56,425 bases of DNA from positions 1-56,425 of the forward strand of contig CAYXFI010000001.1 of assembly GCA_964464205.1 (NCBI GenBank), in the 5' to 3' direction. This stretch comes from an uncultured Cytophagia bacterium. GTDB lineage: Bacteria > Zhuqueibacterota > Zhuqueibacteria > Oleimicrobiales > Geothermoviventaceae. Below are positions 24,349 to 47,906 of the stretch, in pieces. The translations under genes and the position numbers were made by a program. The stretch's first letter is position 1. Each line of letters starts with the position of its first letter. The notes beneath the pieces were generated by a model that was not told where the DNA came from, searched no databases, and saw nothing but the letters and a program-made list of their open reading frames with translations.

Positions 24349-24456
24349 CACGGCCGGCGATCATCCCCCCCCACACCACAGGCCCGCAACTCCCTGAAAA
24401 TCGCTGCGTAGCGACGAGCTGGTTTGTGGTGGCAAACTCAATAGGAGACTCAGGAC

Positions 24457-31323: not shown

Positions 31324-32823
31324 TCACGCACTCACTTCCCCTTTTTTGTCGGTCTCATCTTTCACTCCCTTCGCCAGATACCCCAGCTTTGACATGCCTA
31401 AAGGACTTACGCGAAGCCAACGTCCGCCGCCCAAAGCGCGTGATGAGTGAGCGAGTGTTGTAACTCGTGACAGTTCGAGGCGAGTGATCTTGTCCGCGCT
31501 GGACGAAATCAGGTCTAAAACCACGGAAAACTGGAAAATCACCGATCCGTCCGGCTCGCGGAGAGGTGTTCCATCTGTTTTGTCGAGTGGAACATCTTTC
31601 GGAGGGGTGGACGCCTTGCTGAGAAGTCGCAGCAGACGCTCTGCGACGACCGCTGTGCGGATTTCTTCGGGTGGGGCTTCCCGGAGCTTGGCGGCGAACA
31701 CAACCCGCTCATAGAGCCCTCCTGGCTTCGTCCAGGCCTTGTCAAATGCCTTGGGCAGCGGGTACTCGGCCTGCTTGAGCGATTCGACCCGGATCGCGGA
31801 GGGGGAGATCAGCTGTTTGGCATCCAGAATCAGGGCGCCGCCCGGCGCTTTGGTGAACTGGGGGGCCCGGAGCTCGTACCGCGGCGGCTCGGATCGGACG
31901 ATCGTCAGCTTGAACGGACAGTCGTCTTTCTCTTTTCCGTCCCCGTTGACTGCATCTTCAGGCTTTTCGCGGAGAATCGTTTTGATGTCGCTGCTCAGCC
32001 GTCGTTCGTGCTCGCGCCGCAGAATGCTCAGGAAGATCGTCTTCACTTCCTGGGGCTTTAGCGGCGGCCGGTTTCGCTCGTTGATCGCGCTGACCGTCGC
32101 CAGGAGGGTGCTCACTGATTTCGGCGATTCCAGATCCTCCTGATTTCGCACCAGCCAGCCGCAGTAGCTTGTCAGGTCAACGTTCCGGCTTCCCTCCGCC
32201 GAGCCCTGGATCAGTTTTTCCCATTCCGCAGCAGTTTTTCCTTGACTCCTGGTTGCCTCGGTCGGGGACATGCCCTGCCAGTTGTTGATTCGCGCCAGAA
32301 CTTCGTCGGTGATCTCGGCCGGCTCGATCGAGTCGGGCGGCGCCAGCCAGCGGTAGGGTTTCTCGGTCTTCGGGTGGATGCTGGGAGGGAAAACGCTCTG
32401 GGTGCCCTTACCGCCGTTGCCGACCTTGATTGTCAGCTTACCGAGCTTCACGACGGCCTGGTTCGGCAGTCCCTCGCGCCACTTCAGCAGGAAATGCTTC
32501 TTCGTGTACTCGCGCCCATCTTTCAACTTCACTGTGCTGGAGGCGAACGATGTCGTTGGCGGGGCTTCTCCGTCCCACAGCGCCAGATACTCCTCCTCCT
32601 CTTCTGGTGAGTCGCACTCGCAGTCGATGATCCCAGAATCCTTGCCGAGTAGGACCCCGACATTGAATTCGGGGTTTAGTTTCCACTTCCCCTCCAGTAT
32701 CTCAACATCGTCCGTCGCTACCTTTGGCCATTGCTTCGGGACAGGGACCTTCGCTTTTTTCCGCAGCCAGATGACTTTCCACCCAAATTCCGCACAGAAC
32801 CTAGCTCCGTCGAAAAGATCCAT
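31324..32823 (-). CDS. Primase-polymerase (AEP/PrimPol) with uncharacterised C-terminal half
   Basis: GVLLGKDSGIIDCECD (DxD) and SVFPPSIHPKT (His motif) in the N-terminal ~190 aa. GGAGG RBS. Confidence 0.75.
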   Translation of the reverse strand: MDLFDGARFCAEFGWKVIWLRKKAKVPVPKQWPKVATDDVEILEGKWKLNPEFNVGVLLGKDSGIIDCECDSPEEEEEYLALWDGEAPPTTSFASSTVKLKDGREYTKKHFLLKWREGLPNQAVVKLGKLTIKVGNGGKGTQSVFPPSIHPKTEKPYRWLAPPDSIEPAEITDEVLARINNWQGMSPTEATRSQGKTAAEWEKLIQGSAEGSRNVDLTSYCGWLVRNQEDLESPKSVSTLLATVSAINERNRPPLKPQEVKTIFLSILRREHERRLSSDIKTILREKPEDAVNGDGKEKDDCPFKLTIVRSEPPRYELRAPQFTKAPGGALILDAKQLISPSAIRVESLKQAEYPLPKAFDKAWTKPGGLYERVVFAAKLREAPPEEIRTAVVAERLLRLLSKASTPPKDVPLDKTDGTPLREPDGSVIFQFSVVLDLISSSADKITRLELSRVTTLAHSSRALGGGRWLRVSPLGMSKLGYLAKGVKDETDKKGEVSA

Positions 32824-34752: not shown

Positions 34753-35136
34753 TTAGCAGTACCAGCACTCGACGTACCACTTCTTGCCTAGATGCTTCTT
34801 CGCATCGCGAAACAGCCTACCGTCACCCGGAATGGTCTCAATCCACAACAGGTCATCGCATAACTCGCCTAGCGAATCACGCAAATCATTCAGATATTCC
34901 GGCGCCACACTGATGGTAATTTCACTGCAGCCACGAATGATCTCTTCGGAAGCAATCACAGGAATCCGCCAACTTGACGGTTTGTCGTGGACCTCGAAGT
35001 GAATAGCCTCGCTCGCTTTCGGCACGTCGAACAATACCCGCAACGTGCTAATATGTATGTAAAATCCTGTCTCTGTTTGATAACAACGTCGCCAATCGGC
35101 GCTATCCTCAAGATCCGGCGTTTTGAACAGCAGCAT
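34753..35136 (-). CDS. Hypothetical protein (127 aa)
   Basis: ATG 35136 preceded by AGGAGGTGA (the ORF track start at 35157 is TTG). Confidence 0.5.
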   Translation of the reverse strand: MLLFKTPDLEDSADWRRCYQTETGFYIHISTLRVLFDVPKASEAIHFEVHDKPSSWRIPVIASEEIIRGCSEITISVAPEYLNDLRDSLGELCDDLLWIETIPGDGRLFRDAKKHLGKKWYVECWYC

Positions 35137-35149
35137 CCCATCACCTCCT

Positions 35150-35350
35150 CTAATCAAACGCCCCGGCCTCGATCATCAGCTTGACGCGATCCACCTCGCG
35201 TTGCAGCCGCCGCTGTTCAGCCGCCCTGGCTCGGTCGATCTGCTCACGCATCCGCTGTACCTCGCGGGCGTGCTGCACTGCCGGCGGCTCAGGTTCCACC
35301 TGGCAGACCACGCCCATCAACGCAAGCATCAACACGCAAGCGCCAACCAT
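35150..35350 (-). CDS. Small protein with hydrophobic N terminus
   Basis: MVGACVLMLALMGVVC followed by a charged helix. Weak RBS. Confidence 0.35.
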   Translation of the reverse strand: MVGACVLMLALMGVVCQVEPEPPAVQHAREVQRMREQIDRARAAEQRRLQREVDRVKLMIEAGAFD

Positions 35351-35414
35351 CTTGCCAAAGTCGGCGAAGCTCAGCCTATCGCAACTATTCAGAATTTCCT
35401 AACTGTTGGCTCAG

Positions 35415-35750
35415 CTACTCGTCCTCATCCAAAGCCCACCTCGCCCACTCGCCTGTGACGTAGTTGAAGCCGAGACACTCCCACAGCTCCTCAGCAACCC
35501 CACCGTACGAACAGCAATGGTCAACTCGGATTCGAGCGCATGGAATGCAGGTGTGGTAGTCCTGAAATATGCCATCCGACCTTCCCTTGGCGTACTCGTA
35601 CAATTCGCCGACCTCTATCTGCCCTCCGCACTCGCAGCACTTGTGTCGTTTTCGGGCCCGGACGTCGCAGCATTCGAAGAATTCCCACGGCTCCCATTCT
35701 ACGTTGCACGCACAGCCGCACTCCATTCCATCAATCGTTGCCATGACCAT
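35415..35750 (-). CDS. Cys-rich (zinc-binding?) protein
   Basis: ATG 35750 with GGAGG upstream. Many CxxC-like pairs (ECGCAC, HKCCECGG, CIPC, HCC). Confidence 0.45.
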   Translation of the reverse strand: MVMATIDGMECGCACNVEWEPWEFFECCDVRARKRHKCCECGGQIEVGELYEYAKGRSDGIFQDYHTCIPCARIRVDHCCSYGGVAEELWECLGFNYVTGEWARWALDEDE

Positions 35751-36078
35751 CCCCCTCCGCAACCCAGTCTTCGAACCGCAGTTTGGCAAGCTCTGCCTGT
35801 TTCTCGGCCAGTCGCGTTTCGACCAGCTTGACGAGCCATTCACGGACAAGTTCCTGCCAGCCTTTCAAGTCACTCATACAGCACACCCGCTCAAGCCGGC
35901 CTCTCGGTTTTTGATGAAAGATCGCAGGCGGTTCATCGCCGCCACCAAAGATGAAGTCAACTCGCGTCATCACCTTCGCAGCCGCAACCACGCTTTCCAG
36001 TCGCTCGACAGTTGCCTGCAATGCGGCCGCATGATCAACGAAATCCCGCATCTTATCGATCTCTTCAGGTGTCATCAT
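35731..36078 (-). CDS. Hypothetical protein (115 aa)
   Basis: GGGAGG just upstream of tandem ATGs. Confidence 0.4.
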   Translation of the reverse strand: MMTPEEIDKMRDFVDHAAALQATVERLESVVAAAKVMTRVDFIFGGGDEPPAIFHQKPRGRLERVCCMSDLKGWQELVREWLVKLVETRLAEKQAELAKLRFEDWVAEGDGHGND

Positions 36079-36104
36079 AACCTCCCAATCACTTGTACGG
36101 AAAC

Positions 36105-36725
36105 TCAGTCTGTGGAGTCTTCATCACCAGCCCCCTGCAAATCGTCGTACTTGTTCATGAGTTCCGCCAACTCGTGGTTGCGTAGGTCGCAACGATCCCT
36201 AACAACTGTCATGTCACACCGCACATTGTTCATCCACTCCACGCACTCCTTGACGAAGTCCTTCCACCACTTGATTTCCTCGTAGGCGTCGCACGTGTCG
36301 CACTTGTCCTCCTTGACTTCCTCATTTTCTGATGGGATCGCTGATTCTCGCCTCGCACGCAGCACAGCTCTTGCGACCGCTTCCAGTTTCTCGACATACC
36401 GTTTAGTTCTTGCGTTCCATGATGCTCGCATTATCACATCAACCGAACAGATCACAATCGGAATCCCGTATATCAACCGTTTCAGCCTGCACACCTCAGC
36501 TATCTGCGTGTCGAGCTGGACCCGCAGCTTGGAGCAGTCGTCCTCTTCGTCGTTCAGCACCGGAGCAATGCGGAATCTGTAATGCTCCAGGTCCCAGCCA
36601 TCAGCTGGATCGTGCGGCTCCCACTTTGGAACAGCTGCCACCTTGCACTGTTTTTCGATCCGCTTGTCTTCGAGAGCCCCCTGCAAGACGACAAGCAAAT
36701 CGCGGGTTTCTTGTAGATCTTTCAT
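36105..36725 (-). CDS. Hypothetical protein (206 aa)
   Basis: Preceded by the 10-mer repeat leader. Confidence 0.5.
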   Translation of the reverse strand: MKDLQETRDLLVVLQGALEDKRIEKQCKVAAVPKWEPHDPADGWDLEHYRFRIAPVLNDEEDDCSKLRVQLDTQIAEVCRLKRLIYGIPIVICSVDVIMRASWNARTKRYVEKLEAVARAVLRARRESAIPSENEEVKEDKCDTCDAYEEIKWWKDFVKECVEWMNNVRCDMTVVRDRCDLRNHELAELMNKYDDLQGAGDEDSTD

Positions 36726-36765
36726 CTGTCGGTTCCTGTCAGTTCCTGTCAGTTCCTGTCAGCTC
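36726..36765. repeat. Four tandem 10-mers CTGTC(A/G)G(T/C)TC
   Basis: 36726-35, 36736-45, 36746-55, 36756-65. On the coding (minus) strand this reads GAGCTGACAGGAACTGACAGGAACTGACAGGAACCGACAG-ATG. Confidence 0.9.
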
Positions 36766-37316
36766 CACTTGATCCCTTCAACCGAGAACCGTCCGAAGTA
36801 GCCGTTCTTCCGCGGACGGAAGAACCCGATCCCGATGAATTGCCCGGCGTCCACGAGGTGGGCTTCAAAAACCTCCTTGTCGATCGTCTCGTCGAAGATA
36901 TTGAACGTTACGTCAGCTTCCCATTGATCAATGACAGGAAACCATTTCCACACGCGAGAACCGTCACCGCGCCGCCCGCTCGCTGGAACGAACAGCTTCA
37001 GCGGTTCCACGTCCTTGGCCTTGATCGGCAGAACAACGGGGTCCAGGACGAGAATCCCAGCCTCGAAGTGCTTGGTGTACGTCGCCTTTCCCTTACCAGG
37101 GATCTGGATCGACTTGTACTTCGCCGCCTCGGCAATACAATTTTTGAACGCCATCGGCGGGATGAAGACGTACCCGTCTTTCGTGACGTGCATCCGCTCA
37201 CGCCAGTTCTGTTTCTCGAACTCATTGTGAGTCATGTCGCGCGGCTTCTCGCTTTGAAAAGCAGCAGACTGACCGTAAGGGGAAACGCTCTTCAAACTAG
37301 CAACCGCGATCTTCAT
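36759..37316 (-). CDS. Hypothetical protein (185 aa)
   Basis: AAGGAG RBS. No motif named. Confidence 0.55.
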   Translation of the reverse strand: MKIAVASLKSVSPYGQSAAFQSEKPRDMTHNEFEKQNWRERMHVTKDGYVFIPPMAFKNCIAEAAKYKSIQIPGKGKATYTKHFEAGILVLDPVVLPIKAKDVEPLKLFVPASGRRGDGSRVWKWFPVIDQWEADVTFNIFDETIDKEVFEAHLVDAGQFIGIGFFRPRKNGYFGRFSVEGIKWS

Positions 37317-37343
37317 CTCTAATCTCCTTGCAGGTAAAAGGAA

Positions 37344-37558
37344 GTCTCGTCTCGGCCGGTCGAGTCGCGTTGTATCGAGTCTTGTTCCATCCCGTCCTGT
37401 CGGGTCGGGTCGTGGCGGGGCTGGCCTGATCTCATCATGTCCTGTCGGGTCGGGTCCTGTCGGGGCTGGCCTGATCTCATCATGTCATGTCGTGTCTCGT
37501 CTCGTCGTGTCCTAACCTGTTCAGTCTGGTGCAGGCGCGTCGGGTCTGGTCAAGTCAT
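37344..37558. repeat. Phased pentamer array A, (GTCNN)n, ~43 units
   Basis: 25 GTC, all starting at coordinates ending in 4 or 9, none in any other phase. Includes a 45-bp tandem duplication, 37394-37438 / 37439-37483. Confidence 0.9.
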
Positions 37559-37559
37559 A

Positions 37560-38057
37560 TCAAGATTTCCCGTTGTCTTGTTTGCCGATAAAGAGCTTGA
37601 CGGTCTGATCGAAGTTCAACAACGAATCTGGCGACTTCTCGCTGATGAGCTTCGTTGCTCGCTCCCCGGTCGCCTTGCGGGTGAAGTACAGCTGCGTCCC
37701 GTAGGTGTGATAAACCATTCGTTCCGACTCGTTCAGCTTTGACGGATCGCAGCAAGTATGGGTGCGAATGGCGCGGCCGGCGCGACGGTGCATGATTCTC
37801 CTGGACTTCCCGGCCTGCATGGGGATTTCGTTGTTCTTCAGCCTGCGCACCCCTTTCTTCGGAACAGTCTCGAACGTCACCGATAGATGACGCTCGCAAT
37901 GCCGTCTTGCTGTCCAAACCAGGCCGTTCGCCTCTCTGCGACAATCACGGCCGACCAACTCCGACAACTCGTCCCAAGCAACCAGCTCTCCCTCCTCCAG
38001 CTCTTCCAACCGCTGGATGAGTTGCTGGGTTTCGAGTGACATCTCGAAAGGTTTCAT
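37560..38057 (-). CDS. Basic 166-aa protein flanked by the pentamer arrays
   Basis: ATG 38057 with GGAG 9 nt upstream (ORF track: 38096). No motif recognised; K/R-rich. Confidence 0.5.
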   Translation of the reverse strand: MKPFEMSLETQQLIQRLEELEEGELVAWDELSELVGRDCRREANGLVWTARRHCERHLSVTFETVPKKGVRRLKNNEIPMQAGKSRRIMHRRAGRAIRTHTCCDPSKLNESERMVYHTYGTQLYFTRKATGERATKLISEKSPDSLLNFDQTVKLFIGKQDNGKS

Positions 38058-38086
38058 GGGATTACTCCGATCGAAGAGCACGGCTG

Positions 38087-38284
38087 GTCTTGTCATGTTC
38101 GGTCACGTTGAGTCTCGTTATGTTCCGTCACATCTTGTCTCGTCTCGTCGGGTCCGGTCATATCGAGTCCGGTCATATCCAGTCCAGTCCGGTCCCGTCA
38201 CATCTTGTCGGGTCTCAATCAGTCCTGGCAGGTCAAGATGAGTCCGGTCGTGACTCGTCCCGTCTCAATCAGTCCGGTCGGGTC
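38087..38284. repeat. Phased pentamer array B, (GTCNN)n, ~40 units
   Basis: 27 GTC, all starting at coordinates ending in 2 or 7. Sub-repeats CCGTCACATCTTGTC x2, GTCCGGTCATATC x2, GTCTCAATCAGTCC x2. Confidence 0.9.
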
Positions 38285-38516
38285 GTGTTGCTTCAGATGT
38301 TTCCGGCTCGTCTTTCTGCTCGCTTTCCTCCTTGACCTCATCCGCCGCGGCTTTCCTGCACACCTCGGCTGCTGCGCCGAACAGGGAGTCGGAGTTGCGG
38401 CGATCGAGCCACGCGGCTTTCTCCAGCACCTCGAACGCCTGAGCCAACCGCTTCTTCTCCGACTTCGAGAACACAACCTCAACGCTTCCGTCCAAACAGA
38501 GCTGAGCTTTCATCAA
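38265..38516 (-). CDS. Hypothetical protein (83 aa)
   Basis: Its 3' end runs into array B, so the true stop is uncertain. Confidence 0.35.
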   Translation of the reverse strand: MMKAQLCLDGSVEVVFSKSEKKRLAQAFEVLEKAAWLDRRNSDSLFGAAAEVCRKAAADEVKEESEQKDEPETSEATRPDRTD

Positions 38517-38525
38517 ACAATCCTT

Positions 38526-38795
38526 TCACGTTGCATAGGGAACATCTTTGAACTGTGGAAAAATCGCCAGAGCAATACGCTCTGGAATCTTGTCTCCATG
38601 TCGAAGAACTTCGCCGAACTCTGCGTGATGCGAGAAACCCGGAACGTTTGCGCAGTACGCACACCATGCGCCCTCGATCCTCGTTTTCGCGGCGCACAGA
38701 ACATGCTGATGAAGAGCCGCGATCGCAATCGTCGGCTCCCACTCTGCGAACTCGTTCTCGCTCTCTGGGAACTCGTACCGTCCAAACTTCTTCAT
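38526..38795 (-). CDS. Hypothetical protein (89 aa)
   Basis: Compact ORF directly after the SNF2 gene. Confidence 0.45.
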   Translation of the reverse strand: MKKFGRYEFPESENEFAEWEPTIAIAALHQHVLCAAKTRIEGAWCAYCANVPGFSHHAEFGEVLRHGDKIPERIALAIFPQFKDVPYAT

Positions 38796-38797
38796 CG

Positions 38798-40153
38798 CTA
38801 GACCTCTTGCCTTTTTCTGAGCCCCTCCAGCACGCTCTCGATCACATTCCGCTTTGACGCCAAGGCCTTGTAGACCGTCTCGTCTACCGTGTTCTCAGCG
38901 ATCAAATGGTAGAACTGAACGTGACGCCGTTGCCCGGGGCGGTGAACACGAGCCAGCGCCTGGTCGTAGTTGCCCAGCGACCAGCACGCCGAGTAAATGA
39001 TCACGTATGAGGATCGTGTCAAGTCGATGCCCAGCCCACCCGCCTGATACTGCACGGCCAGCACATCGATCTCTTCTGGCATCGTTGCTTTGTCTGTTAG
39101 GTCGCGGCGGTTGCCACTGACTTCGCCGTAGCGGCGGCCGAGTTTCTTGCAAACTCGCTTGACAGCCAGCATATCGGCTTTGAACTCGCAGAAGACGACG
39201 ACGGGATCGGAGAGGTCTTCGAGGAGCTCGCGGAGCTCGTCGCTCTTACTGGCGTGGACTTCTGTCAGGGAATCCACGTCGTCCGGCTGGAGAAAGCCGT
39301 TGACGCATTGTCGGAGCCGGAGCGTCTTGACTAGGGCGTTGGCCGCTGTGATGAACCCATCGTCCAGCATGGCGCAGAAATCCAGTTCCAGGTCCTTGTA
39401 GATCTTGCGGGCTTTTGCCGGCAGCTCGAAGCTGCGGATATGGTGCTGGGCTTCCGGGAGATCGAGAACGTCGGCCGAGACCTGGTAGGCGAGCAGGCCG
39501 AATTTCTGTTGGAGGATGTCCAGGTTCTTGTAGCCGGTGATCATCTGCGGGATGACTGGGTTTGTTCGCTGGGCGTACGTGTTGCGGAACCGCGTCCAGT
39601 AGATGCCGAACAGGCTCGGGGCGAGGAAGCGGTACTGGCCGAAGATGCTCAGCGGGTCACGGACCATGGGCGTGCCGGAGAGGCAGAGCCGCCGGCGCGC
39701 TCGGTTGGAAATCCGCATCATGAACTTGCTGATGCGGGTCCCGTGGGGCCCGAACCGGTGCGATTCGTCCGCCACAATCGCGTCCCACACTCGTTCCATG
39801 ACGAGCTGATTAAAGGGCGGCCGCCAGAGACTCTCATAGTTCTGGACGACCGCCAGGGGGCGCTGATCGGTCTGGAGCGCTGATTTGGCGACCTGAGTCT
39901 GAGTCGCGACGGTACCGCGGTCGAGGACGACCACACGGTACCGCGGCGCCCACTTGGCGAACTCGCGCCGCCAGACGCCTCGGACGTTGCACGGGCAGGC
40001 GACGAGAACCAGTTGAGAATCCCAGTGCGAGAGTAGGTCGCAGACCACTCGGCTTTTGCCCGTTCCCATCGCCATGGCGAGCATGGTGGCCTGCTTGTCT
40101 CGCGCGAAAGCGAATGCGCGATCCTGATGTCTCCAGCGGGGGGGAGAAGCCAT
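38798..40153 (-). CDS. SNF2/DEAD-like SF2 helicase
   Basis: MAMGTGKS (I), IVADESHRF (II), CLSGTPMVRDP (III), GGLGIDLT (V), QALARVHRPGQ (VI). Confidence 0.9.
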   Translation of the reverse strand: MASPPRWRHQDRAFAFARDKQATMLAMAMGTGKSRVVCDLLSHWDSQLVLVACPCNVRGVWRREFAKWAPRYRVVVLDRGTVATQTQVAKSALQTDQRPLAVVQNYESLWRPPFNQLVMERVWDAIVADESHRFGPHGTRISKFMMRISNRARRRLCLSGTPMVRDPLSIFGQYRFLAPSLFGIYWTRFRNTYAQRTNPVIPQMITGYKNLDILQQKFGLLAYQVSADVLDLPEAQHHIRSFELPAKARKIYKDLELDFCAMLDDGFITAANALVKTLRLRQCVNGFLQPDDVDSLTEVHASKSDELRELLEDLSDPVVVFCEFKADMLAVKRVCKKLGRRYGEVSGNRRDLTDKATMPEEIDVLAVQYQAGGLGIDLTRSSYVIIYSACWSLGNYDQALARVHRPGQRRHVQFYHLIAENTVDETVYKALASKRNVIESVLEGLRKRQEV

Positions 40154-40159
40154 GTTTTT

Positions 40160-40321
40160 CTACCGCTCTTTCTTTTCGCGGGGGTCCACCCGCGAGATCT
40201 TGAGCTCTTTCGGCGCGCTGATGCCGAGCTTGACTCGTCTTCCGTCGATCCTGATGACTGTGATCATGATCTCGTCGCCGATCGAGATCCGCTCATCTAC
40301 ATTCCGTGTAAGAACCAGCAT
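40160..40321 (-). CDS. csrA: CsrA/RsmA-family RNA-binding translational regulator (53 aa)
   Basis: MLVLTRNVDERISIGDEIMITVIRIDGRRVKLGISAPKELKISRVD compared with E. coli CsrA [46 protein letters not shown]. AGGAG 8 nt upstream of ATG 40321. ORF track gives the longer 40160..40462. Confidence 0.85.
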   Translation of the reverse strand: MLVLTRNVDERISIGDEIMITVIRIDGRRVKLGISAPKELKISRVDPREKKER

Positions 40322-40458
40322 TGACCTGCTCCTAGAAAACGCCGCTCGCTTCGGCTCCGTCGTACGATCCATCCCACGAGCGGCAGAATCCGTTCTCTCT
40401 CCAAATCCTATCGGAGGTCTGCATGTCTCCATGAAGGTACTAAAAGATTCGTACCCAG

Positions 40459-40797
40459 TCAACCCTCTTCTTGAGAATTTTCTCGCGCTTTTTTTGCGAC
40501 TCCATCACGATAAAGTTGATCGGGATCATCATCAAGAGGATGGATCATTCCTTTGCGGTTCACGCGGCGAGTCGAGACAAGCAGAGACAACGGGACGCCG
40601 AGGGCACGAGCAATATCGCTCGCAATTCGCAGCGTGATCCCCTTTCGGCGTCCGTTCTCGATGTCAGAAATGTCGCTCGGGCGGTAGCCGGAAATACGAG
40701 CTAAGCCGCGTTGGCTCAAATGCAAGGCGCGTCGGACCGCCGCCATGTTCGCGATGAATGCTTCCACTTCCGGCCGGATCTCGTTGTTCTTAACCAT
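40459..40797 (-). CDS. XRE (Cro/C1-type) helix-turn-helix regulator
   Basis: LHLSQRGLARISGYRPSDISDIENGRR. Confidence 0.8.
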   Translation of the reverse strand: MVKNNEIRPEVEAFIANMAAVRRALHLSQRGLARISGYRPSDISDIENGRRKGITLRIASDIARALGVPLSLLVSTRRVNRKGMIHPLDDDPDQLYRDGVAKKARENSQEEG

Positions 40798-40827
40798 GCC
40801 CCCATACTACTAATCTATTCGTACGGG

Positions 40828-43800
40828 TCAAGGCAGATTCAATTTCAGCCGGAGTTTGCGGCGTTTTGGAGCCGGACGGCGCGCCTGGTAGGTTTGGAGT
40901 CCCACGCCGAAGATCGCCAGAAGGCTCAGCGCGGCGCCCTTCGGAACACCTTGCTCCCGCATCGCTTCGTAGATATCTCGCGTCGTGATCGGGATCAAGG
41001 CATCCTTGGCCAGCGAGACAGCGGTAACCTTCTCCCCAACGATGTTTTCACCGTTGAAGTAATTGGCGATGCCTCCAAGCCAGGGGGACAGCTTTGTCCG
41101 CATGAATCGCCCCACCGTTCCCATAGTCGTTCGGCCGCCGTAGGGACGCTCCGGACCCCGGAGAGCGACAACCCGCCCGCCGGCGGTCTTCCGCTTGCCC
41201 AGAATGACCTGGGATGACACAACAGCGGTCTGGGACAGGCCGGCCAGCGGGTCGAGTCGCGTGTTGCCGAATCGGATCTTCCCGAAATCCGTGGACAGCG
41301 GGTTGATCTCGATTTTCGGGATGTTGTCGTCGTCAGCGCCCATCGCCGCCATAGCGCCGCCGATCAGAGCGAGTGACCCGTAGAACAGCCCGTAGCCCAT
41401 CAGTGCTCGCCCGTATTCCTTGGCAATCAGTTTCCGGGCCTGATTGGCGTCGCCCCAGGCAATATGCCCTTCCTTCTTGAGCGGTTTCCAGAGCGGGTAG
41501 CCGATCATCAGTTGAAAACGGCTCATCACGTATCGCGGAGCGAAAAACGTTATCCCAAGGTTCTGGGCTGAGCGCTCCAGGGCGCCAAGGGGCCCTCGGC
41601 CTGTTGCGATGTTGACGTAATCTGCGATCAGCTTCGCCTCGTCCATCGTGATTTCGCGGTCCCGGGCGATCTTGTCCGCCATCTGATCGAACAGATCCGC
41701 CCGCATCTTGTTCAGAACCGTCACGTAGGCCCGTTCCGAGCCGCGGACCCCAGCGCCGAGCCAGCCGCCTGTGCCCGCCTTCTTGAACAGATGTCCAGCA
41801 TACGCCTCTTCCTGGGCGGTGAAATCGCCGAGAATGTCGGTGATCGCCAACCCGGCGCGGTAGTAGATCGGAGCGTTCTCGCGGTTGCGGATCTCCTCCA
41901 TGACCTCGAAATGCGACTGATCGCTCAGAGCTGACTCGATCATCGGTCGGACCGTGTTTTTCGTCAACTTCGGATGAGAAGCTGCAACCCAGCCGCCTTG
42001 CCGCAGCAAGCCTGAGAACTCAAAGCTCGTCAAAACCGCTCTGGACGTGTTGAGTGTGCGAGCTATCATGTCGAACCCGCGTTCCACTGTGTTGAACTTC
42101 TCTCGCTCCAGAACCTCCTGGTAGAGCCTGATCTCCTTTTTCGCCTGCTCGATCTTGTAGAGAACGTCGAGCTGCTCCTGGGTGTGCTGCCGCTCAGGGC
42201 GCCGGCGCTTAGCGAAGTCGCCGCGGGCGATCCGATCGAGATAATCGGCCAGTCGTTTCTGGAGCTGGGCATTGTAGGCGTAATCCGGCCGCTCCTTCTG
42301 CCTCAGGGCCTCTCGCTCTGCTTTGAGTGCTTCGAGGCGAGCGCGCCGGGCGTCGATCGCTTCGCTGCGGCGGACCGTACGAGGCTTCCCCCAGATCCGC
42401 CCTTCCGCCAGATCCTTCTCCATGTTCTTGATGAGTCGATCCAGGGTTTTAACGGTCCGGCGCTCCAGCTCTTCCTCGGTCGGCGGCGCTTTCGGGAACA
42501 CCTGTCGATGCAGCTTCTTGACTTCAGCCAGCTGGCGGCGAAGCTCCTTGAGCTCTGCGTCTTCCTCCAGCTTCACCTTGTCGCGAGTGATCCGCTCCTT
42601 GTGGGCGATCTCGTACTGCATGTCCCGGATCGAGTTCCGGATCGCCGTCTTGACGCTCGAAAGGGTGGTTTTGAGCCTCCGGGCCGGGTCAAAGGGCCCA
42701 AATTTCGCCAATTTCATGGCCTCGCGGACTTTCTTCTCCAACCGGCGCTGCTCATCCTCCGGCCGATACTGCTCCATGCCCTTCTTCGGCGGCGCTTTTC
42801 CGTTCTCGATGTCGATCAATCTGGCGATTTGGGTGAGCTCGCCGCGGATGCGGCGAACTTCCTGAAGCACCTCGGTCTTGTTGAGCGGCCGGAAGCGGTC
42901 GTAGGCGGCGATTGCTTTGAGAGTGTCCAGACGGCTCCAGGACTCGCCAAACATCTCAGACAGTTCCCCGTGGACCTGATCCGCAATCTCTTCCCGCATC
43001 GCCGCTTTTTCCTCGTCGCTGCGGCCTTCCAGCGTTCTGCCCTCCTCGGCCCAGGAAGTGACGATCGACTTGACCATTTTGTAGGCCAGGTCGTAGATCT
43101 CCTCGGTCTCTTCCGTGGTCACGTCGAACGTGTCGGAGGCGAAGTCCAGCTTTGCCTGTTTCCAGCCCTCGCGGGCCAGGTCGTGGTACTTGGCGGCCTC
43201 GTCCTCGCCCAAATCGACCTTGAGATTCTGGAAATACTCCTGGAACGTGACGACACCCAGCTCCATGTAAGCCGCGGCGACATTGGCGGCGTCCCGGATG
43301 ACCTCGGGCGGGAACCCGCCGATCGTCGCCGTTTCACCCCGGGCGAACGACTTGAGCGACTCGCGGAGTTTGGCGACTGCGGCGTCTTTCTTGCTCCGGG
43401 CCGCCCGGCGCCGCTTCGACTCGCGCCGGCGCCCGGGGCGCTCCGCTGGCGGGATCGGCTCAGCGCCGGGTCCGCGCCCCTCCGGCGCAGGTCCAGCGCC
43501 TCTTTTCACTTCTTCCCTCGCCTCGGCGACGGTAGCGTCGAAGGCGTCCTGGATGAGAAGATCCTCGAACTGATCCTGCCAGCCCTTGATTTGCTCGGCG
43601 AGCTTCTGAAGCGTCGCCAGTTCCTCCGACGTGAGCGCCGCGCCCTTGGACGCCATGACGCGCCGGGTGAGCCCCGCGAGGCTGTAGTCGGCCGCCAGGA
43701 CGACTTTGCGAGCCATGAGGGAGTAACTGGCGCGGGTGCCCGCCTCCTTCGTCGCCGACTCGACGGAGCGGATCTTTTCGAGCAGCTCCATCTGGCGGTC

Positions 43801-46800
43801 GGCGGCGAGTTTCTTGGCGGCGGTGTCCCCGGCCTCTGATGCGGCGACGAATTCCTTGGTCGCCGACTCCAGCTCATTCTGGAGTCTGACGTAATGCAGC
43901 AGCATCGCGGCGTGCTCGCGCTCCGTAAGCACGTCGGTCGAGGTCGCGATCTTCGCAACCAGCTTGTTCGGCAGGTCTGGGTCCGTCAGAAGCATTCCGC
44001 TGGCATCTTCCACCCATTCGGAGAACGTCTCAGAAGTTTCTCGGGTGGGAGGCAGCGCAGCCTCGCCGCGGACAGCACGCTGGACCTCCACCATCGCGTT
44101 TTTGAGCGAGTAGACGGTTTCGGCGACGTCCATGAGCTCCGTTTCAGGCGGACCGCTCGGTTCGCTGGGCCCCTCGGGCGGCGGATGCGGCGTCTCTTCT
44201 GGCGCGAGTTCCATACCTTCCGGCCCGAGCCGCTTTTGGTAGGAGTTCCACACGCGAGCCATCAGGGGGCGGATCTCATCGGCGTATTCGGCGCCCTGGG
44301 ACTCCGCAACGTTCTCCATGAGAACCTGGAATCGAGTTACGCCGATCTTGACCTGCGCAGCGACGTACTTCGCAACAGCGCGGATCAGCTCCGGGTCAAC
44401 GCCGACCGTGATCTTTTTCTTCTTGATGAGCTGGTTGATCGTATCCAGGGCGTCACTGGACTCTTTGTAGAGCCGATCGAGCTTCTCGGCCTTTGTTTTT
44501 GGTGCGGCTTCTTCTTGTGCAGCTTTCTCTCGCTGGGCTTTATCTTTTGCGAACTCTTCCGGGGTCATCCTCGCCTTATCGATCCACCGCTCTCGCTTCT
44601 TCCTGGAAGGCTTTTCCTCTTTCTTTCTCAGCCGTTTGTTGCGAGCTTCTTCCGTCTCGCCGAATTCAGCAAGCTCGTTCTCTCGCATGAACCAATCGGC
44701 GAGCTCATCGGCTGTTGCAGCGTCCCAATCCGGAGGCTGCATTTCCAGCTCGACGTTTGCCTGTTCAATGTCTTCCGGTCTGATGTCCTCTTTCAGATAA
44801 GGAAGGTAGGCAGCATCACCAAGTTCACTTTCCAGGCGATCGGCAACGGTTTGAAGCCACTGGGGGTTGTCAAGACGGAATGTCTCGCGCTTCGCCGGCG
44901 CAGGACCGAGTTTTACCAAAAGATCAGCATAGGCTTGAGCGTCGGCCATCGGATCTTCAGTATCCTCGAACTTGACTTTCGCAAACAGATCAGGAAAGTC
45001 ATAAGAAAGACTCATTGCGGCATCATCAAGACCCTTGAAGTATCGCCAGTCGTGTTCCTCCAGAACCTTGTAGTCACCCGGTTTGAACTTCGCTAACTCG
45101 CGAGCGCGCCGCTCGAAGTCCTTAACATGCTGCCACTCGGCTCTTGCTTCCCTGTAGCCCCTTTGCACTTCCTCTACAAACAGCCCAGGGATTATTCCTT
45201 GTTTCTCTGCGAAGTCGAGGATGTTTTCATCGATGTCCTTGATTTCCTCGACCAGGTTGATTTTCGACTTTCCCTTGTAGGCAAGGCCGCGGTTCTCGGC
45301 TTCTTTTCTGAGCGCAACAACGCTGTAGTCCTTCGCCTTCATGCCGCGCCATCGGCCCTTCCGCTCTCGTTTGGGACGCGGCTTTGTCGGCTCAGGCGGA
45401 GGGGGTTTCCTTAGCTGTACTTGCTTTTCTTCTTGTGGCGGCTTTTCTTCTGATACTTGCTGCTCCTCTTGTCCGCCTCGACGAACTCCCTCGCCACCTT
45501 CTGGCTCGGGCCCTTGAACCGGCTCGGTTTCCACCCGTGTGCGATCGCCAGCATCAGGCGGTGCTGTTTCCTGCTCTTGGACGGCATCGGTTGTTTCCTC
45601 CTCTAACGTGGCTTCCTGCTCTTGGATGATCTGTTCGATCTCCTCCTCGTGCTCTCGAACGTACTCCTCGCGCTGTTTCGCGCTGTCCGTGTCGCCTTCC
45701 GGCAACTCAGCTTCTTTCTTCAGCTCATTGACCTCGCGGCGAGACGGAGCTTCTCCCTTCTTGACCTTTTGCTTGACCGTTTCCCAGATCTCGCGGCGGT
45801 TCTGGACAGCTTCTTTCGCTTTGGAAACGACAGGCGGCGCAATCTGAGGGGACTCGACAAGCCCGACTGTCATCAACGTTTGCACCGTCGTATCAAACGC
45901 AGTTTGAAGAAGACGACCAGGGGTTGTCGCCTCGGGATCAACACCTGAGAAGCTGCTTGCGACGTTATGGCCGAGCTCCGTAATGAGCTCTTCCGGCACC
46001 TCCTCTAGCGCCGTGATGCCGGCTTTCTTCAGACCCGAAACGATCCCGATGCTAGCAGCTTCAGCTCCTTTCTTCCCGAAGAGTTTCCCGAGCTGTTTCT
46101 CGACGCCGCCGAGCCCAAGTCGCTGAAAAACGATCGCGGGAACTGCCTCAATCACCCCTTGCCCCGCAATGTAGCGAGTCAGCTCAGGACCCTTAAGTCC
46201 TGCGTCCCAACCTTCTGTCATCGCCCGATCGGCTTCATCGGCCGCGGCAAGCCCGGTCGCTCCGTAGGGCCCAGCAACAGCTGCTCCAGCCACCATCGTT
46301 GGGAGCATGACGGCAACGCCGCGAGCTGCGCGTTTGAGCCAAGCTGGAGTCCAGCTGTTTGATTGCTGCTCTTGCTCTTCGATCGCCTGACCGATCGCTG
46401 CTGACTTTCGCTGAAGCCGGCCCATCGTGCCAACGTCGCCGGCTGCGCTGCTCGCCATTGCTCCGATGTTGGCGCCCAATTGTCGCAGCACCGCTTCCGC
46501 GTTCGGCATCGCAGAATCCTTGAGCTGCTCACGCGCCGTGGAAAGCTCGGATTCTTTCTGCCTCTGGGCGTCGAGCCTGCTCAACCGCTCCCGTTCCTTG
46601 TCGTGGAGCTGCATCAGTGTTTCCGGCTTTGCGCCCTTCGGAATGTCTAGCTCGAACTGATACCGGCCGCCCTTACCGCGGAGGTATCGGTCGCCCTCGA
46701 TGAGGCCGAACTGCTCGCCTTTCTTGAGCTCGCCTCGTTGATACGCCTTGAAGGCATCGAAGTAAGTCTTGAAGTGGCGCAGCCGCTCAACGGGAACATC

Positions 46801-47085: not shown

Positions 47086-47087
47086 GA

Positions 47088-47906
47088 TCACGGTCCCCAA
47101 GCGTTGCCGTACATGTCTCTCGAAATACCGAGTATTTTGTTGGCTTCTGTTATGGCTTCCTCGGTACTCATCCCTTCATTTGAACTTTTCAGATCGGCGA
47201 TCAGTGCGGCTCTCTTCTCCATCAATGCGGCTCTCGCTTCCTGCAACTGCTGTTGTTGCTGAGCTTCGAGCATCTGTTTTCGTTGTGTCTCGGACACAAG
47301 CTGACCAACCCCGCCACCCTGTAGAGGATATGACCCCGGGTATTCCTCCTTTGTCCAACCAACAACCCTTTGCTTCATCATCTCTTCAGGAGAAAGCGGC
47401 TGGTATCCCTTTGCCAAGATGCTGTCGATCTCATCATGAAGAAGCCGCTTGCGGTTCAGGTAATCAGTATAGTCCCCTCCGCCATGGGCCTGTTGATTCC
47501 GCCACTGCTTCTCTAACTCATCGAGGTTCTGCTTCGCCTTCTCCAGGGCGATCTCTTGAGACTGATCCAGCTGGAGCTTCCCCTTCGTCTTGTCGGCCAG
47601 CATGTCTCGGCGCCGCCAGCCCTGGAGCATCTGGTCGCGCAAGGTGCGCTCGCCGAAGCGAGACCTGGCGTACTTCTCCTGGAAGGAAAAGCCGCTCTGC
47701 TGCATCTCCTGGCGATTCCGCCAATCTTCTGCCTGCATCTCCCGGCGGTTTTGCCAGTCGGTTTCTTGCATCGCCTGGCGATTTTGCCAGTCTTGGTTTT
47801 GCTGCCAGATCCCCAGTTGAGCCAGCGATGCAATTCCAGGTCCGCCCATCCCCGTGCGAACGCCTCGATACCCGCTACCGCCGCCGTATTTGAGCCTAAT
47901 GGGCAT
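47088..47906 (-). CDS. Q/N/R-rich helical protein (272 aa)
   Basis: ATG 47906 (MPIRLKYGGG). Three DWQNR..MQ 11-aa repeats. Confidence 0.5.
   Translation of the reverse strand: MPIRLKYGGGSGYRGVRTGMGGPGIASLAQLGIWQQNQDWQNRQAMQETDWQNRREMQAEDWRNRQEMQQSGFSFQEKYARSRFGERTLRDQMLQGWRRRDMLADKTKGKLQLDQSQEIALEKAKQNLDELEKQWRNQQAHGGGDYTDYLNRKRLLHDEIDSILAKGYQPLSPEEMMKQRVVGWTKEEYPGSYPLQGGGVGQLVSETQRKQMLEAQQQQQLQEARAALMEKRAALIADLKSSNEGMSTEEAITEANKILGISRDMYGNAWGP

What the first reader, a model, noticed from the sequence alone, without database searches (positions are those of the whole stretch)
37344..38284. Two ~200-bp arrays of strictly 5-nt-phased GTC pentamers bracket one small gene
In 37344-37558 I count 25 GTC trinucleotides. 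Every one starts at a coordinate ending in 4 or 9: 37344, 349, 359, 364, 379, 394, 399, 404, 409, 439, 444, 449, 454, 459, 484, 489, 494, 499, 504, 509, 524, 539, 544, 549, 554. None falls in the other four phases. In 38087-38284 there are 27 GTC, all starting at coordinates ending in 2 or 7. In-phase slots that lack GTC mostly hold one-mismatch variants (ATC, GTT, GGC). Both tracts are therefore degenerate (GTCNN)n arrays of about 43 and 40 pentamers. They contain higher-order copies: a 45-bp tandem duplication at 37394/37439, plus CCGTCACATCTTGTC x2, GTCCGGTCATATC x2 and GTCTCAATCAGTCC x2. A 5-nt period is incompatible with coding. The arrays fill the entire intergenic space on both sides of the basic 166-aa gene 37560..38057. 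If GTC positions were independent, the chance that 25 share one phase is (1/5)^24. Three readings seem possible. (a) A cooperative protein-binding array (origin, centromere or operator) for the enclosed protein. (b) A priming hot-spot: T7 gp4 primase recognises 5'-GTC-3' inside (G/T)(G/T)GTC pentamers, the pRN1 PrimPol needs a template triplet, and this genome encodes a PrimPol 5 kb away. (c) As minus-strand RNA, (GACNN)n carrying about 12 GGA motifs in array B could be a CsrA-titrating leader. I know of no described element with this architecture.
Basis: partly seen in the sequence, partly recalled or inferred. Interest (0 to 1): 0.9.

Follow-up and report, generated by a model that had tools for sequence, protein, structure and literature searches.

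The report
Phage VIPR guide-RNA arrays, GAC-type
The two 5-nt-phased GTC tracts are very probably arrays of pentanucleotide-repeat guide RNAs of a phage VIPR system (an RNA-guided DNA-silencing system first described in 2026), read from the minus strand as (NN-GAC)n next to its Cas7-like Vipr protein; the fixed triplet here is GAY, not the published GGY.

Summary
There are 25 and 27 GTC, each set in a single phase, in about 43 and 40 pentamer slots, and nothing similar occurs elsewhere in the window.

The tracts are not an origin, a primase hot-spot or a CsrA sponge. On the minus (gene-sense) strand they read (NN-GAY)n. They flank two genes:
- 36759-37316 encodes a 185-aa protein. Its AlphaFold model matches Cas7-family RAMPs. 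It is homologous to the Vipr proteins of Felix-O1-like coliphages and of Pseudomonas phage LESphi2, which are flanked by canonical (NN-GGY)n arrays.

This matches the VIPR system described in two 2026 bioRxiv preprints. In that system one Vipr protomer binds each pentamer, hides the triplet and presents the NN dinucleotides, which pair with dsDNA while skipping every third base.

About 20 related viral, metagenomic and MAG loci show the same vipr/vap/array cassette.

The differences from the published description are the GAY triplet (GUY in one sister lineage; A and G forms mix within this Vipr clade) and the 200-nt uninterrupted in-phase arrays.

No targets were found. Verdict: a known kind, new variant.

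The parts
38087..38284 (-). vrRNA array B. It has 40 in-phase pentamers that read (NN-GAY)n on the minus strand (27 GAC, plus GAU, AAC and a few other variants). It fills the spacer between the upstream 83-aa ORF and the vap-like gene. Its 3' end is ...AUGACAAGAC-CAGCC, 30 nt before the ATG at 38057.
   Evidence: The orientation and the GACAAGAC end signature are shared with relatives.
37560..38057 (-). vap-like accessory gene of 165 aa: an N-terminal winged helix followed by a helical C-terminal domain.
   Evidence: - The family has 1140 members, all about 165 aa and without annotation.
- The AF2 model has pLDDT 93.8.
- Only weak winged-helix fold matches were found: OmpR/PhoB-type, MarR and PurR N-terminal domains.
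- In relatives the gene lies next to vipr in either order.
- Similarity to the gene after vipr in Shigella phage Z31 is weak (E 4e-5; hhalign probability 40%).
37344..37558 (-). vrRNA array A. It has 43 in-phase pentamers (NN-GAY)n on the minus strand (25 GAC). It fills the spacer between vap and vipr and ends 27 nt before the vipr ATG.
36759..37316 (-). vipr gene: a 185-aa minimal Cas7-like RAMP. It has an RRM core and the glycine-rich loop GIGFFRPRKNGYFGRFSVE.
   Evidence: - The AF2 model has pLDDT 91.3.
- The top Foldseek PDB hits are type VII Cas7, Csm3, Cmr4 and Cas7-11 (E down to 2.4e-7, probability 1.0, TM 0.5-0.57).
- hhalign against the Z31 Vipr-type protein gives probability 96.9%, E 1.8e-10.
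- tblastn hits 122 phage records, mostly Ounavirinae, plus LESphi2.
- The protein search gives 2319 homologues at E <= 0.001; the 119 best-scoring relatives listed are 59-75% identical.
36726..36766 (-). Short third tract, (CUGAC-AGGAA)x4 on the minus strand, in which GAC and GAA triplets alternate. It runs from the vipr stop codon to the ATG of the next gene (36725). It may be a decayed or minimal repeat tract.
37419..37483 (-). Two copies of AUGAUGAGAUCAGGCCAGCC (37419-37438 and 37464-37483) inside the 45-nt duplication. They are candidate boundaries or tails between guides, and they keep the 5-nt register.
   Evidence: This is an inference from the tails that separate guides in relatives.
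38195..38275 (-). Candidate guide boundaries in array B.
- GGACUGAUUGAGAC occurs at 38212-38225 and 38262-38275. It resembles the start of the inter-guide tail CUGAUUCGGAC... in L247.
- GACAAGAUGUGACGG occurs at 38195-38209, with a second copy at 38125-38139. It resembles the clade-wide 3' end GACAAGAC.
   Evidence: The boundaries are inferred, not shown.
37333..37343 (-). UUCCUUUUACC, directly after the last repeat of array A. Related motifs follow the last repeat in relatives: UUCCUUUAUCAC, UUCACUUUCC and UUCCUACGC in L247, and CUUUUACUUUCC in L121.

Best explanation
The locus 36726-38284 (minus strand) is a VIPR (Viral Interference Programmable Repeat) cassette of a tailed phage: array B, vap, array A, vipr.

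**Proposed mechanism.**
- The arrays are transcribed with the genes as (NN-GAY)n RNA and are probably cut into several guides (vrRNAs).
- The 185-aa Cas7-like Vipr protein polymerises on the RNA, one protomer per pentamer.
- Each protomer buries the fixed triplet and exposes the two free bases.
- The string of NN dinucleotides pairs with double-stranded DNA while skipping every third target base.
- This silences genes of competing phages or prophages.
- The winged-helix protein encoded between the arrays is the accessory Vap.

**Shown here.**
- The repeat anatomy.
- The RAMP fold of the 185-aa protein and its homology to Vipr.
- The recurrent cassette in relatives.
- The constant orientation of arrays relative to the genes.

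**Inferred from the two preprints.** Filament formation, the skip-one pairing rule and silencing are taken from the papers, not tested here.

**Specific to this clade.**
- The fixed triplet is GAY, not GGY.
- Several guides abut without leaving the 5-nt register.
For: 1. **Repeat design.** There are 3 conserved plus 2 information-free positions per pentamer. This is the vrRNA design reported in 10.64898/2026.04.26.720920.
2. **The neighbouring 185-aa protein is a RAMP.** Its Foldseek top hits are Cas7/Csm3/Cmr4 (E 2.4e-7, probability 1.0).
3. **It is homologous to Vipr-type proteins of cultured phages.**
   - hhalign against Z31 gives 96.9%, E 1.8e-10, with a shared G-loop ...G.G..RPR..GRFSVE.
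   - tblastn hits Ounavirinae and LESphi2.
   - Those phage genes are flanked by canonical (NN-GGY)n arrays plus tails, as the paper describes for SUSP1 and P. fulva.
4. **Relatives found by protein alone carry arrays.**
   - L121, L122/L123, L125, L247, L249 and L250 carry (NN-GAY)n arrays in the same intergenic spaces.
   - L251 carries GGC arrays, and L125 and L121 carry mixtures.
   - One locus (L126) has only degenerate runs.
5. **Relatives found by array alone carry vipr.** In loci fetched only by a (GTCNN)5GTC pattern, nearly every complex array sits next to vipr, usually with vap.
6. **Arrays run in the same direction as vipr.** They end 25-34 nt before the next ATG. They carry a clade-wide 3' end GACAAGACAAG followed by lineage-specific tails.
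7. **The cryo-EM paper fits the conservation pattern** (10.64898/2026.04.26.720927). It reports one protomer per repeat. G1 is read by hydrogen bonds, G2 is only stacked and salt-bridged, and Y3 sits in a pocket that excludes purines. Here G and Y are kept while the middle base varies between lineages (A, G or U).
Against: - **Triplet.** It is GAY, not GGY. The paper states that perturbing the GGY motifs abolished SUSP1 silencing, and a GGY>GAY construct was among those tested. The only alternative consensuses it lists are NNNGG, YNNNG and NNNNG.
- **Array form.** The arrays are 40-43 units long with no clear structured tails, whereas the paper describes 9-16 repeats plus a tail. Guide boundaries are only inferred.
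- **Targets.** No convincing target was found with the skip-one rule.
- **Expression.** There are no expression data, and no sigma-70-like promoter was predicted in 36600-38900.
- **Vap.** Homology to the Z31 gene is weak.
Confidence: 0.85

Rival explanations
1. The arrays are double-stranded DNA binding platforms (operator, partition site or replication origin) for the enclosed winged-helix protein. The protein would coat them cooperatively, as iterons flank repA in P1/F replicons or as parC is bound by ParR.
For: - The enclosed protein has a confident winged-helix model.
- The arrays flank its gene on both sides in the window and in many relatives.
- The locus lies among replication genes: SNF2 helicase, PrimPol, UvrD.
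Against: - Arrays are found next to vipr homologues in loci with no detectable vap (L117, L030, L053/L080, L038/L074). Arrays with vap but no vipr occur only where the held DNA is cut off (L075, L115, L123).
- The orientation relative to transcription is constant, which a duplex binding site does not need.
- Two of every five positions are free.
- A 5-bp period places successive sites on opposite faces of the helix.
- No Rep or ParA gene lies next to the arrays.
- The homologous cassettes of Ounavirinae phages are reported to make small RNAs bound by Vipr.
Confidence: 0.07
2. The arrays are priming hot-spots: dense 5'-GTC-3' primase recognition sites on the plus strand, used by the phage replisome.
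For: - GTC is the T7 gp4 recognition triplet (established knowledge).
- The genome encodes a PrimPol at 31324-32823.
Against: - The genome's primase is an AEP PrimPol, not a T7/DnaG-type enzyme.
- Primase sites need no fixed 5-nt register.
- Relatives with 60-65% identical neighbouring genes use GGC in the same register, and another lineage has GTC on the opposite (gene-sense) strand.
- The arrays travel with vipr, not with primase genes.
Confidence: 0.02
3. The minus-strand RNA is a CsrA-titrating sponge or leader for the phage CsrA encoded at 40160-40462.
For: - A CsrA homologue lies 1.9 kb away (Pfam E 2.3e-17).
- A CsrA gene also lies 1.4 kb from the cassette in L247/L248.
- There are 11 GGA in array B and 6 in array A on the minus strand.
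Against: - GGA arises only when the free base before GAC is G. That base is G in 25-35% of units, as expected with no selection.
- No Rfam family matches, CsrB/Rsm families included.
- The conserved element is GAC, not GGA.
- Most related cassettes examined have no CsrA gene nearby.
Confidence: 0.02
4. The tracts are decaying pentanucleotide microsatellites with no function.
For: Pure (GTCNN)n microsatellites do exist. They made up part of the pattern hits, for example L008, L018, L019, L089, L090 and L095, and most of the genome hits.
Against: - Decay would hit all five positions equally. Here three positions keep 1.1-1.5 bits and two keep about 0.
- The NN content is complex.
- The same design recurs next to homologous genes in unrelated contigs.
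Confidence: 0.01

Closest known systems
VIPR systems (Vipr + vrRNA + Vap), especially the vipr+vap1 type II systems of Escherichia phage SUSP1 and a Pseudomonas fulva prophage (bioRxiv 10.64898/2026.04.26.720920 and 10.64898/2026.04.26.720927)
   Same: - A phage-borne two-gene cassette.
- A minimal Cas7-like RAMP of about 20 kDa with a G-loop.
- An accessory protein predicted to bind DNA.
- Intergenic arrays of pentamers with three fixed and two hypervariable bases, running in the same direction as the genes.
- Arrays both upstream and downstream of the genes.
- Relatives in the same Vipr clade have 10-26-unit guides separated by conserved tails.
   Different: - The fixed triplet is GAY (unit YNNGA), not GGY (YNNGG). 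The base that changes is the one kept in every alternative consensus the paper lists.
- A sister lineage uses GUY.
- In the window the guides abut, so that 40-43 units stay in one register. There is no obvious structured tail.
- The gene order here is vap then vipr; both orders occur in relatives.
- The G-loop residue at the position of SUSP1 D177 is F/Y in the pure-GAC loci.
- Expression, RNP formation and targets are untested here.
Class 1 CRISPR Cas7 backbone filaments on crRNA
   Same: The fold is homologous. One RAMP protomer binds per fixed-length RNA segment, and a thumb flips out bases periodically (as described).
   Different: - There are no CRISPR repeats or spacers, no cas1/cas2, and no other cas genes in the window.
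- The period is 5 nt with three bases hidden, rather than 6 nt with one base flipped.
- The guide information is non-contiguous.
TRAP (trp RNA-binding attenuation protein) sites: 11 (G/U)AG triplets with 2-3-nt spacers
   Same: A triplet plus about 2 free bases is repeated, and each subunit of an oligomeric protein binds one triplet on RNA.
   Different: - There is no MtrB/TRAP homologue.
- TRAP has 11 repeats, against about 40 here.
- TRAP spacers are not informational, and TRAP acts in attenuation, not in guiding.
- This is a resemblance from established knowledge only.
Iteron-controlled replicons (P1 incC-repA-incA, F ori2-repE-incC)
   Same: Repeat arrays lie on both sides of a small gene for a DNA-binding protein.
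   Different: - Iterons are 17-22 bp long and spaced in step with the DNA helix.
- Iterons are bound as duplex DNA by a two-winged-helix Rep protein.
- No Rep homologue is present here.
- Here the arrays follow the RAMP gene.

Membership tests
VIPR system | A Vipr protein: a minimal RAMP (RRM core, glycine-rich loop, thumb) outside any CRISPR context | tested here: met
   - The AF2 model has pLDDT 91.3.
- Foldseek gives Cas7, Csm3, Cmr4 and Cas7-11 hits with E 2.4e-7 to 1e-4.
- The G-loop is GIGFFRPRKNGYFGRF.
- No CRISPR-like repeat array was reported in the window, and the annotated neighbours include no cas genes.
VIPR system | Sequence homology of the RAMP to Vipr proteins of described VIPR-bearing phages | tested here: met
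   - tblastn hits 122 phage records, mostly Ounavirinae (the subfamily that includes SUSP1, by my own knowledge), plus Pseudomonas phage LESphi2.
- hhalign against the Z31 protein gives probability 96.9%, E 1.8e-10.
- Both phage loci carry canonical (NN-GGY)n arrays plus tails.
- SUSP1 itself was not retrieved.
VIPR system | Intergenic tandem pentanucleotide repeats with a conserved triplet alternating with hypervariable NN, flanking vipr | tested here: met
   (1.1-1.5 bits against about 0 bits per position). The same design is seen in relatives.
VIPR system | Triplet consensus GGY (unit YNNGG), or one of the listed alternatives NNNGG, YNNNG or NNNNG | tested here: not met
   - The minus-strand consensus is GAY, so the unit is YNNGA.
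- The paper allows 'a related consensus', but its figure S17 is not held.
- Within the same Vipr clade, GGC, mixed GRY and GAC arrays all occur.
- I therefore treat GGY as typical rather than defining.
VIPR system | Each vrRNA has 9-16 repeats followed by an invariant, structured 3' tail | tested here: inconclusive
   - The window arrays are 40-43 units long and uninterrupted. Only repeated sub-blocks suggest boundaries.
- Relatives show 10-26-unit guides with tails.
- The paper also reports 'staggered' arrays in which guides abut.
VIPR system | An adjacent vap accessory gene with a predicted DNA-interacting product | tested here: met
   - The winged-helix model has pLDDT 93.8.
- The gene is adjacent to vipr in about 20 loci.
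- Homology to the Z31 downstream gene is only weak.
VIPR system | Arrays transcribed and processed into small RNAs that co-purify with Vipr | not testable with these tools
   Only the orientation is known: the arrays run in the same direction as vipr and vap in all loci examined.
VIPR system | The NN strings match natural DNA targets under the 1-nt skip rule | tested here: inconclusive
   - Three 11-unit patterns gave 0 hits.
- A 10-unit pattern gave 2 + 8 hits. None extends past the 10 units, and the hits lie in unrelated sequence contexts.
- The local test was uninformative.
- Guide boundaries and the host are unknown.
VIPR system | Phage or prophage context | tested here: met
   - The window encodes tail fibre, terminase, PrimPol, helicases and a Pam3 gp33-like protein.
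- The relatives are IMG/VR contigs, some with integrases.
CsrB/RsmZ-type CsrA sponge RNA | Many GGA motifs, enriched and presented in hairpin loops | tested here: not met
   The GGA frequency is what a free base before GAC would give. No Rfam hit was found at E <= 1.
Iteron origin or partition centromere | Repeats of 11-22 bp in helical register, bound by an adjacent Rep or ParB/ParR protein, with a Rep or ParA gene nearby | tested here: not met
   The period is 5 nt. No Rep or ParA family hit was found among the ten neighbouring genes. The arrays follow vipr.
CRISPR array | Direct repeats of 23-50 nt separated by unique spacers of similar length, with cas genes | tested here: not met
   The tandem-repeat scan shows only the pentamer-based structure and its 15-, 25- and 45-nt multiples.

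The most novel reading that the evidence does not exclude
This is a natural GAY-type VIPR (with a GUY-type in a sister lineage). In it the Vipr pocket for the middle base of the fixed triplet has been re-specified.

**What supports this reading.**
- The G-loop residue at the position of SUSP1 D177 is F/Y in the five pure or degenerate GAC loci.
- It is R in the four GGC, mixed or GUC loci, and D in the GGU phage Z31.
- Two more distant GAC loci carry T or S at this position, so the pattern is a lead from about 12 loci, not a rule.

**What it would mean if true.**
- The 'scaffold' half of the noncontiguous code is itself evolvable.
- Nature then offers mutually orthogonal Vipr/vrRNA pairs.
- Several guides can be concatenated in one uninterrupted 200-nt register without structured tails.

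Whether the published survey already covers this consensus could not be checked, because its supplementary figures and tables are not held.
Probability: 0.45. Interest if true: 0.6.

Novelty: new variant of a known kind. Interest (0 to 1): 0.45.

Why it matters
VIPR is a very recently described RNA-guided DNA-recognition system and is proposed as an ancestor of the CRISPR RAMPs.

**What this locus and its relatives show.**
- The Vipr family is large in environmental phages. The 185-aa protein has 2319 homologues at E <= 0.001, almost all unnamed.
- The supposedly fixed GGY half of the repeat can be GAY or GUY.
- Long multi-guide arrays can stay in one register.

**Possible uses.**
- A handle on how Vipr reads the triplet.
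- A way to find further VIPR loci that a YNNGG search would miss.
- A possible source of orthogonal guide scaffolds for engineering.

**For annotation.**
- These tracts produce spurious plus-strand ORFs with a V-x-S-x-x period.
- They should be masked as non-coding RNA arrays.

Tried and rejected
1. **Direct homologue searches for the 165-aa protein.**
   - Pattern-based locus search, tblastn in phages and the word-index protein search found nothing but the query itself.
   - Only the exhaustive HMMER search revealed the family.
2. **Annotation libraries.** Pfam and PHROGs gave no function for either cassette protein.
3. **Identity of the window.** Megablast of 36000-40500 against phages found no match, so the window's identity and host stay unknown.
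4. **RNA families.** An Rfam scan of 35000-41000 at E <= 1 gave 0 hits, so there is no known hammerhead or sRNA family.
6. **Solved structures for Vap.** Sequence search found only noise. Fold search found only generic winged-helix hits with E > 0.03.
7. **Promoter and terminator scan of 36600-38900.** No sigma-70-like promoter was found, and terminator-like sites were at the chance level.
8. **Target search.**
   - A local skip-0 to skip-4 comparison over 1.2 Mb was first swamped by microsatellites. After filtering it was at chance.
   - Six collection scans with 11-unit patterns gave 0 hits. The two scans with the 10-unit pattern gave only hits at the chance level.
9. **Genome scan for GACNN...GACAAGACAAG.** It returned mostly (GACAA)n microsatellites, with true VIPR loci in only about 6 of 120.
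10. **The two 'opposite-polarity' loci (L082, L084).** They are not inversions. They are a GUC-type on the sense strand, with the matching end GUCAAGUCAAG.
11. **Ideas considered early and dropped** once the RAMP neighbour was recognised: TRAP-like attenuation, the cos/pac site of a small terminase, CcrM GANTC sites, and pentapeptide-repeat coding on the plus strand.
12. **The VIPR paper's supplementary tables.** They are not held. So I could not check whether this record or this consensus is in its set of 667 loci.
Full report
**1. Observation**

- 37344-37558 holds 25 GTC, all in one phase.
- 38087-38284 holds 27 GTC, all in one phase.
- Neither tract has an out-of-phase GTC, and no other 200-nt window of the 56 kb has more than five in-phase GTC.

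Lag-5 self-identity is 0.45-0.66 in the tracts, against about 0.2-0.3 at neighbouring lags. The 14 best lag-5 windows all lie in these two tracts.

Cut into pentamers, the tracts have 43 and 40 slots. Positions 1-3 carry 1.1-1.5 bits each and positions 4-5 carry 0.01-0.10 bits. That pattern means selection on a triplet with two free bases. It is not what a decaying microsatellite would show.

The 45-nt duplication and the three repeated sub-blocks are real.

All neighbouring genes are on the minus strand. In gene sense the tracts therefore read (NN-GAC)n, with the variants GAU, AAC and GCC.

**2. The neighbourhood**

Neither protein of the locus has a Pfam or functional PHROG match.

*The enclosed 165-aa protein.*
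- It belongs to an unannotated family of about 1140 proteins, nearly all 157-175 aa.
- Its AlphaFold model (pLDDT 93.8) is a winged helix followed by a helical domain. The only structural matches are weak and generic winged-helix hits.

*The next gene downstream, 36759-37316.*
- It encodes a 185-aa protein with 2319 homologues at E <= 0.001. The 119 best-scoring relatives listed are 59-75% identical.
- Its model (pLDDT 91.3) matches Cas7-family RAMPs: type VII Cas7, Csm3, Cmr4 and Cas7-11 (E down to 2.4e-7, probability 1.0).

*The wider window.* It is a tailed-phage genome with tail fibre, terminase, PrimPol, UvrD and SNF2 helicases, a CsrA homologue and an XRE regulator.

**3. Relatives**

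*Loci found by array pattern.* A scan of IMG/VR for (GTCNN)5GTC returned more than 120 loci.
- Some are plain microsatellites.
- The complex arrays sit, almost without exception, beside homologues of the 185-aa protein, usually with the 165-aa protein as well, in either gene order.
- Upstream arrays end 25-34 nt before the next start codon and run in the same direction as the genes.

*Loci found by protein identity alone.* This sampling is unbiased with respect to the arrays, and it gives the same picture.
- L121, L122/L123, L247, L249 and L250 have 10-32-unit GAY arrays.
- L125 has mixed GRY arrays, and L251 has GGC arrays.
- L121 has both GAC arrays and one GGC array.
- L126 has only degenerate runs.

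*Shared anatomy.* Guides in this clade end with GACAAGACAAG and are followed by lineage-specific tails of 20-30 nt.

*The apparent exceptions.* L082 and L084 looked like opposite polarity. They actually carry GUC on the sense strand, with the parallel end GUCAAGUCAAG.

*Genomic occurrences.* They include Sedimentisphaerales, Pirellulales, Geobacteraceae and FCB-group MAGs.

**4. Identification**

*The published system.* A literature search for pentanucleotide repeats in phages found bioRxiv 10.64898/2026.04.26.720920. It describes VIPR systems with these parts:
- a roughly 20-kDa minimal RAMP (Vipr);
- an accessory Vap;
- intergenic vrRNAs made of 9-16 YNNGG repeats (GGY/NN) plus a tail.

The NN dinucleotides pair with dsDNA while skipping one base, and this represses competing phages.

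*The structural paper.* The companion cryo-EM paper (10.64898/2026.04.26.720927) reports the following:
- one Vipr protomer binds per repeat in a right-handed filament;
- G1 is read by hydrogen bonds;
- G2 is only stacked and salt-bridged;
- Y3 sits in a pocket that excludes purines.

*Links from the window to that system.*
- The window's 185-aa protein hits 122 phage genomes by tblastn, mostly Ounavirinae, plus Pseudomonas phage LESphi2.
- In Shigella phage Z31 the hit gene and a 146-aa gene are flanked by canonical (NN-GGU)n arrays plus tails: one upstream and several downstream.
- LESphi2 has three (NN-GGC)n guides upstream of its homologue.
- Profile comparison of the window's family with the Z31 protein gives 96.9% probability and E 1.8e-10. 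The two share the G-loop motif G.G..RPR..GRFSVE.

I therefore identify array B, the 165-aa gene, array A and the 185-aa gene as vrRNA array, vap, vrRNA array and vipr.

**5. Mechanism**

*Shown here.*
- The anatomy of the repeats.
- The RAMP fold and its homology to Vipr-type proteins.
- The recurrent cassette and the constant orientation of the arrays.

*Inferred from the preprints.*
- The arrays are transcribed with the genes.
- Vipr polymerises at one protomer per pentamer. This explains why no insertion or deletion breaks the register over 200 nt.
- The GAY triplets are buried, and the NN string reads DNA with a one-base skip.

*Specific to the window.* Several guides appear to abut.
- Repeated blocks may be vestigial tails or guide ends that happen to keep the register. 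They are AUGAUGAGAUCAGGCCAGCC x2, GGACUGAUUGAGAC x2 and GACAAGAUGUGACGG x2.
- GGACUGAUUGAGAC resembles the inter-guide tail of L247, and GACAAGAUGUGACGG resembles the clade-wide end signature.
- The paper mentions 'staggered' arrays in which one guide ends where the next begins.

The guide boundaries remain unproven.

**6. Differences from the published description**

*The fixed triplet.*
- It is GAY, so the unit is YNNGA.
- The paper lists only NNNGG, YNNNG and NNNNG as alternatives.
- It reports that perturbing GGY in SUSP1 abolished silencing, and GGY>GAY was among the constructs tested.
- Within the window's own Vipr clade the middle base is A, G or mixed. A sister lineage has U.

*A possible protein correlate.*
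- In a 12-sequence alignment, the G-loop residue aligned with SUSP1 D177 is F/Y in five pure or degenerate GAC loci.
- It is R in four GGC, mixed or GUC loci, and D in Z31.
- It is T or S in two more distant GAC loci.
- This is a lead from a small sample, not a result.

**7. Targets**

I could not find any.
- A local skip-rule comparison over the 1.2 Mb held was at chance.
- 11-unit xNN patterns from three array segments gave no hit in the viral, genome or metagenome collections.
- A 10-unit pattern gave 2 + 8 hits. None extends beyond the ten units, and the hits lie in unrelated sequence contexts, so I read them as chance.
- With the guide boundaries and the host unknown, this result is inconclusive rather than negative.

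**8. The rivals**

*DNA-level platform for the winged-helix protein.* This is disfavoured for four reasons.
- The arrays accompany vipr even where no vap is detectable. The reverse occurs only where the held DNA is truncated.
- The orientation of the arrays is fixed.
- Two-fifths of the positions are free.
- No Rep or ParA gene is adjacent.

*Primase hot-spot.* This does not explain the phasing. It is also contradicted by the GGC and sense-strand GUC relatives.

*CsrA sponge.* This fails because GGA is only a by-product of a free G before GAC. Nothing matches Rfam.

*Decayed microsatellite.* This is excluded by the information profile.

**9. Verdict**

The element is a VIPR cassette, a kind described in 2026, and here it is a GAY-type variant with unusually long in-register arrays. 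I could not see the preprint's supplementary figures and tables. The variant may therefore already be catalogued, and that uncertainty is reflected in the scores.

Noticed in passing
window 40160-40462 (-); L247/L248 4978-5166: A phage CsrA homologue lies 1.9 kb from the cassette in the window (Pfam CsrA, E 2.3e-17). Another lies 1.4 kb downstream of the vipr-vap cassette in an unrelated contig pair. This may be a coincidence or a recurrent pairing of two post-transcriptional or silencing regulators.
   Followed up: partly
L082 4326-4950; L084 11373-12074: A sister Vipr lineage carries arrays with GUC on the gene-sense strand. They end in GUCAAGUCAAG, parallel to GACAAGACAAG in the GAC clade. 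In L084 the downstream array is followed by a terminator-like hairpin and a T-run.
   Followed up: partly
window 36798-36821 (-) (Vipr G-loop GIGFFRPR); alignment: The G-loop residue aligned with SUSP1 D177 is F/Y in the pure or degenerate GAC loci. It is R in the GGC, mixed and GUC loci, D in the GGU phage Z31, and T or S in two distant GAC loci. This may be co-variation with the middle base of the triplet, but the sample is small.
   Followed up: partly
L051 6985-12522: One IMG/VR contig has (NN-GAC)n arrays in six consecutive intergenic spaces over 5.5 kb, starting right after a tyrosine integrase. Some of these spaces lie between genes that are neither vipr nor vap. L037, adjacent on the same contig, has more arrays. 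This is a much larger guide repertoire than in the window.
   Followed up: partly
L121 1553-1635 versus 118-260 and 786-833: A single 1.6-kb contig carries GAC-type arrays upstream of vap and vipr and a 17-unit GGC-type array downstream of vipr. One Vipr may therefore accept both triplets.
   Followed up: no
window 37319-37483 (-), 37437-37742 (+), 38017-38335 (+), 38265-38516 (-): The arrays generate spurious ORFs. Plus-strand reading gives V-x-S-x-x periodic peptides with few stop codons. The 83-aa minus-strand ORF 38265-38516 runs its last codons into array B. Gene callers are likely to mis-annotate such loci.
   Followed up: partly
window 1-193 and 48673-49613: There are extensive tandem repeats with 12-nt and multiple periods (units such as GGAGTCTGCGAA and CTCGAAGGGGTG). 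They lie at the left end of the window and inside the 687-aa minus-strand ORF 48555-50618. The period is a multiple of 3, so they are probably a repetitive structural protein. That ORF has no PHROG match.
   Followed up: no
window 40828-47100 (-): A 2090-aa ORF immediately upstream of the XRE/CsrA genes has no Pfam family at E <= 0.001.
   Followed up: no
window 20081-24389 (+): This is a plus-strand island in an otherwise minus-strand genome, with raised G+C (0.60-0.67). It encodes an ATPase (phrog_19600, E 1e-62) and a 472-aa protein (phrog_24053). It may be a moron or a defence-type insert.
   Followed up: no
L127-L246 (genome scan): Most genome hits to GACNN...GACAAGACAAG are pure (GACAA)n microsatellites in Brachyspira, Endomicrobium, Lachnospiraceae and others. 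Pattern searches for VIPR-like arrays therefore need a filter on NN complexity.
   Followed up: yes
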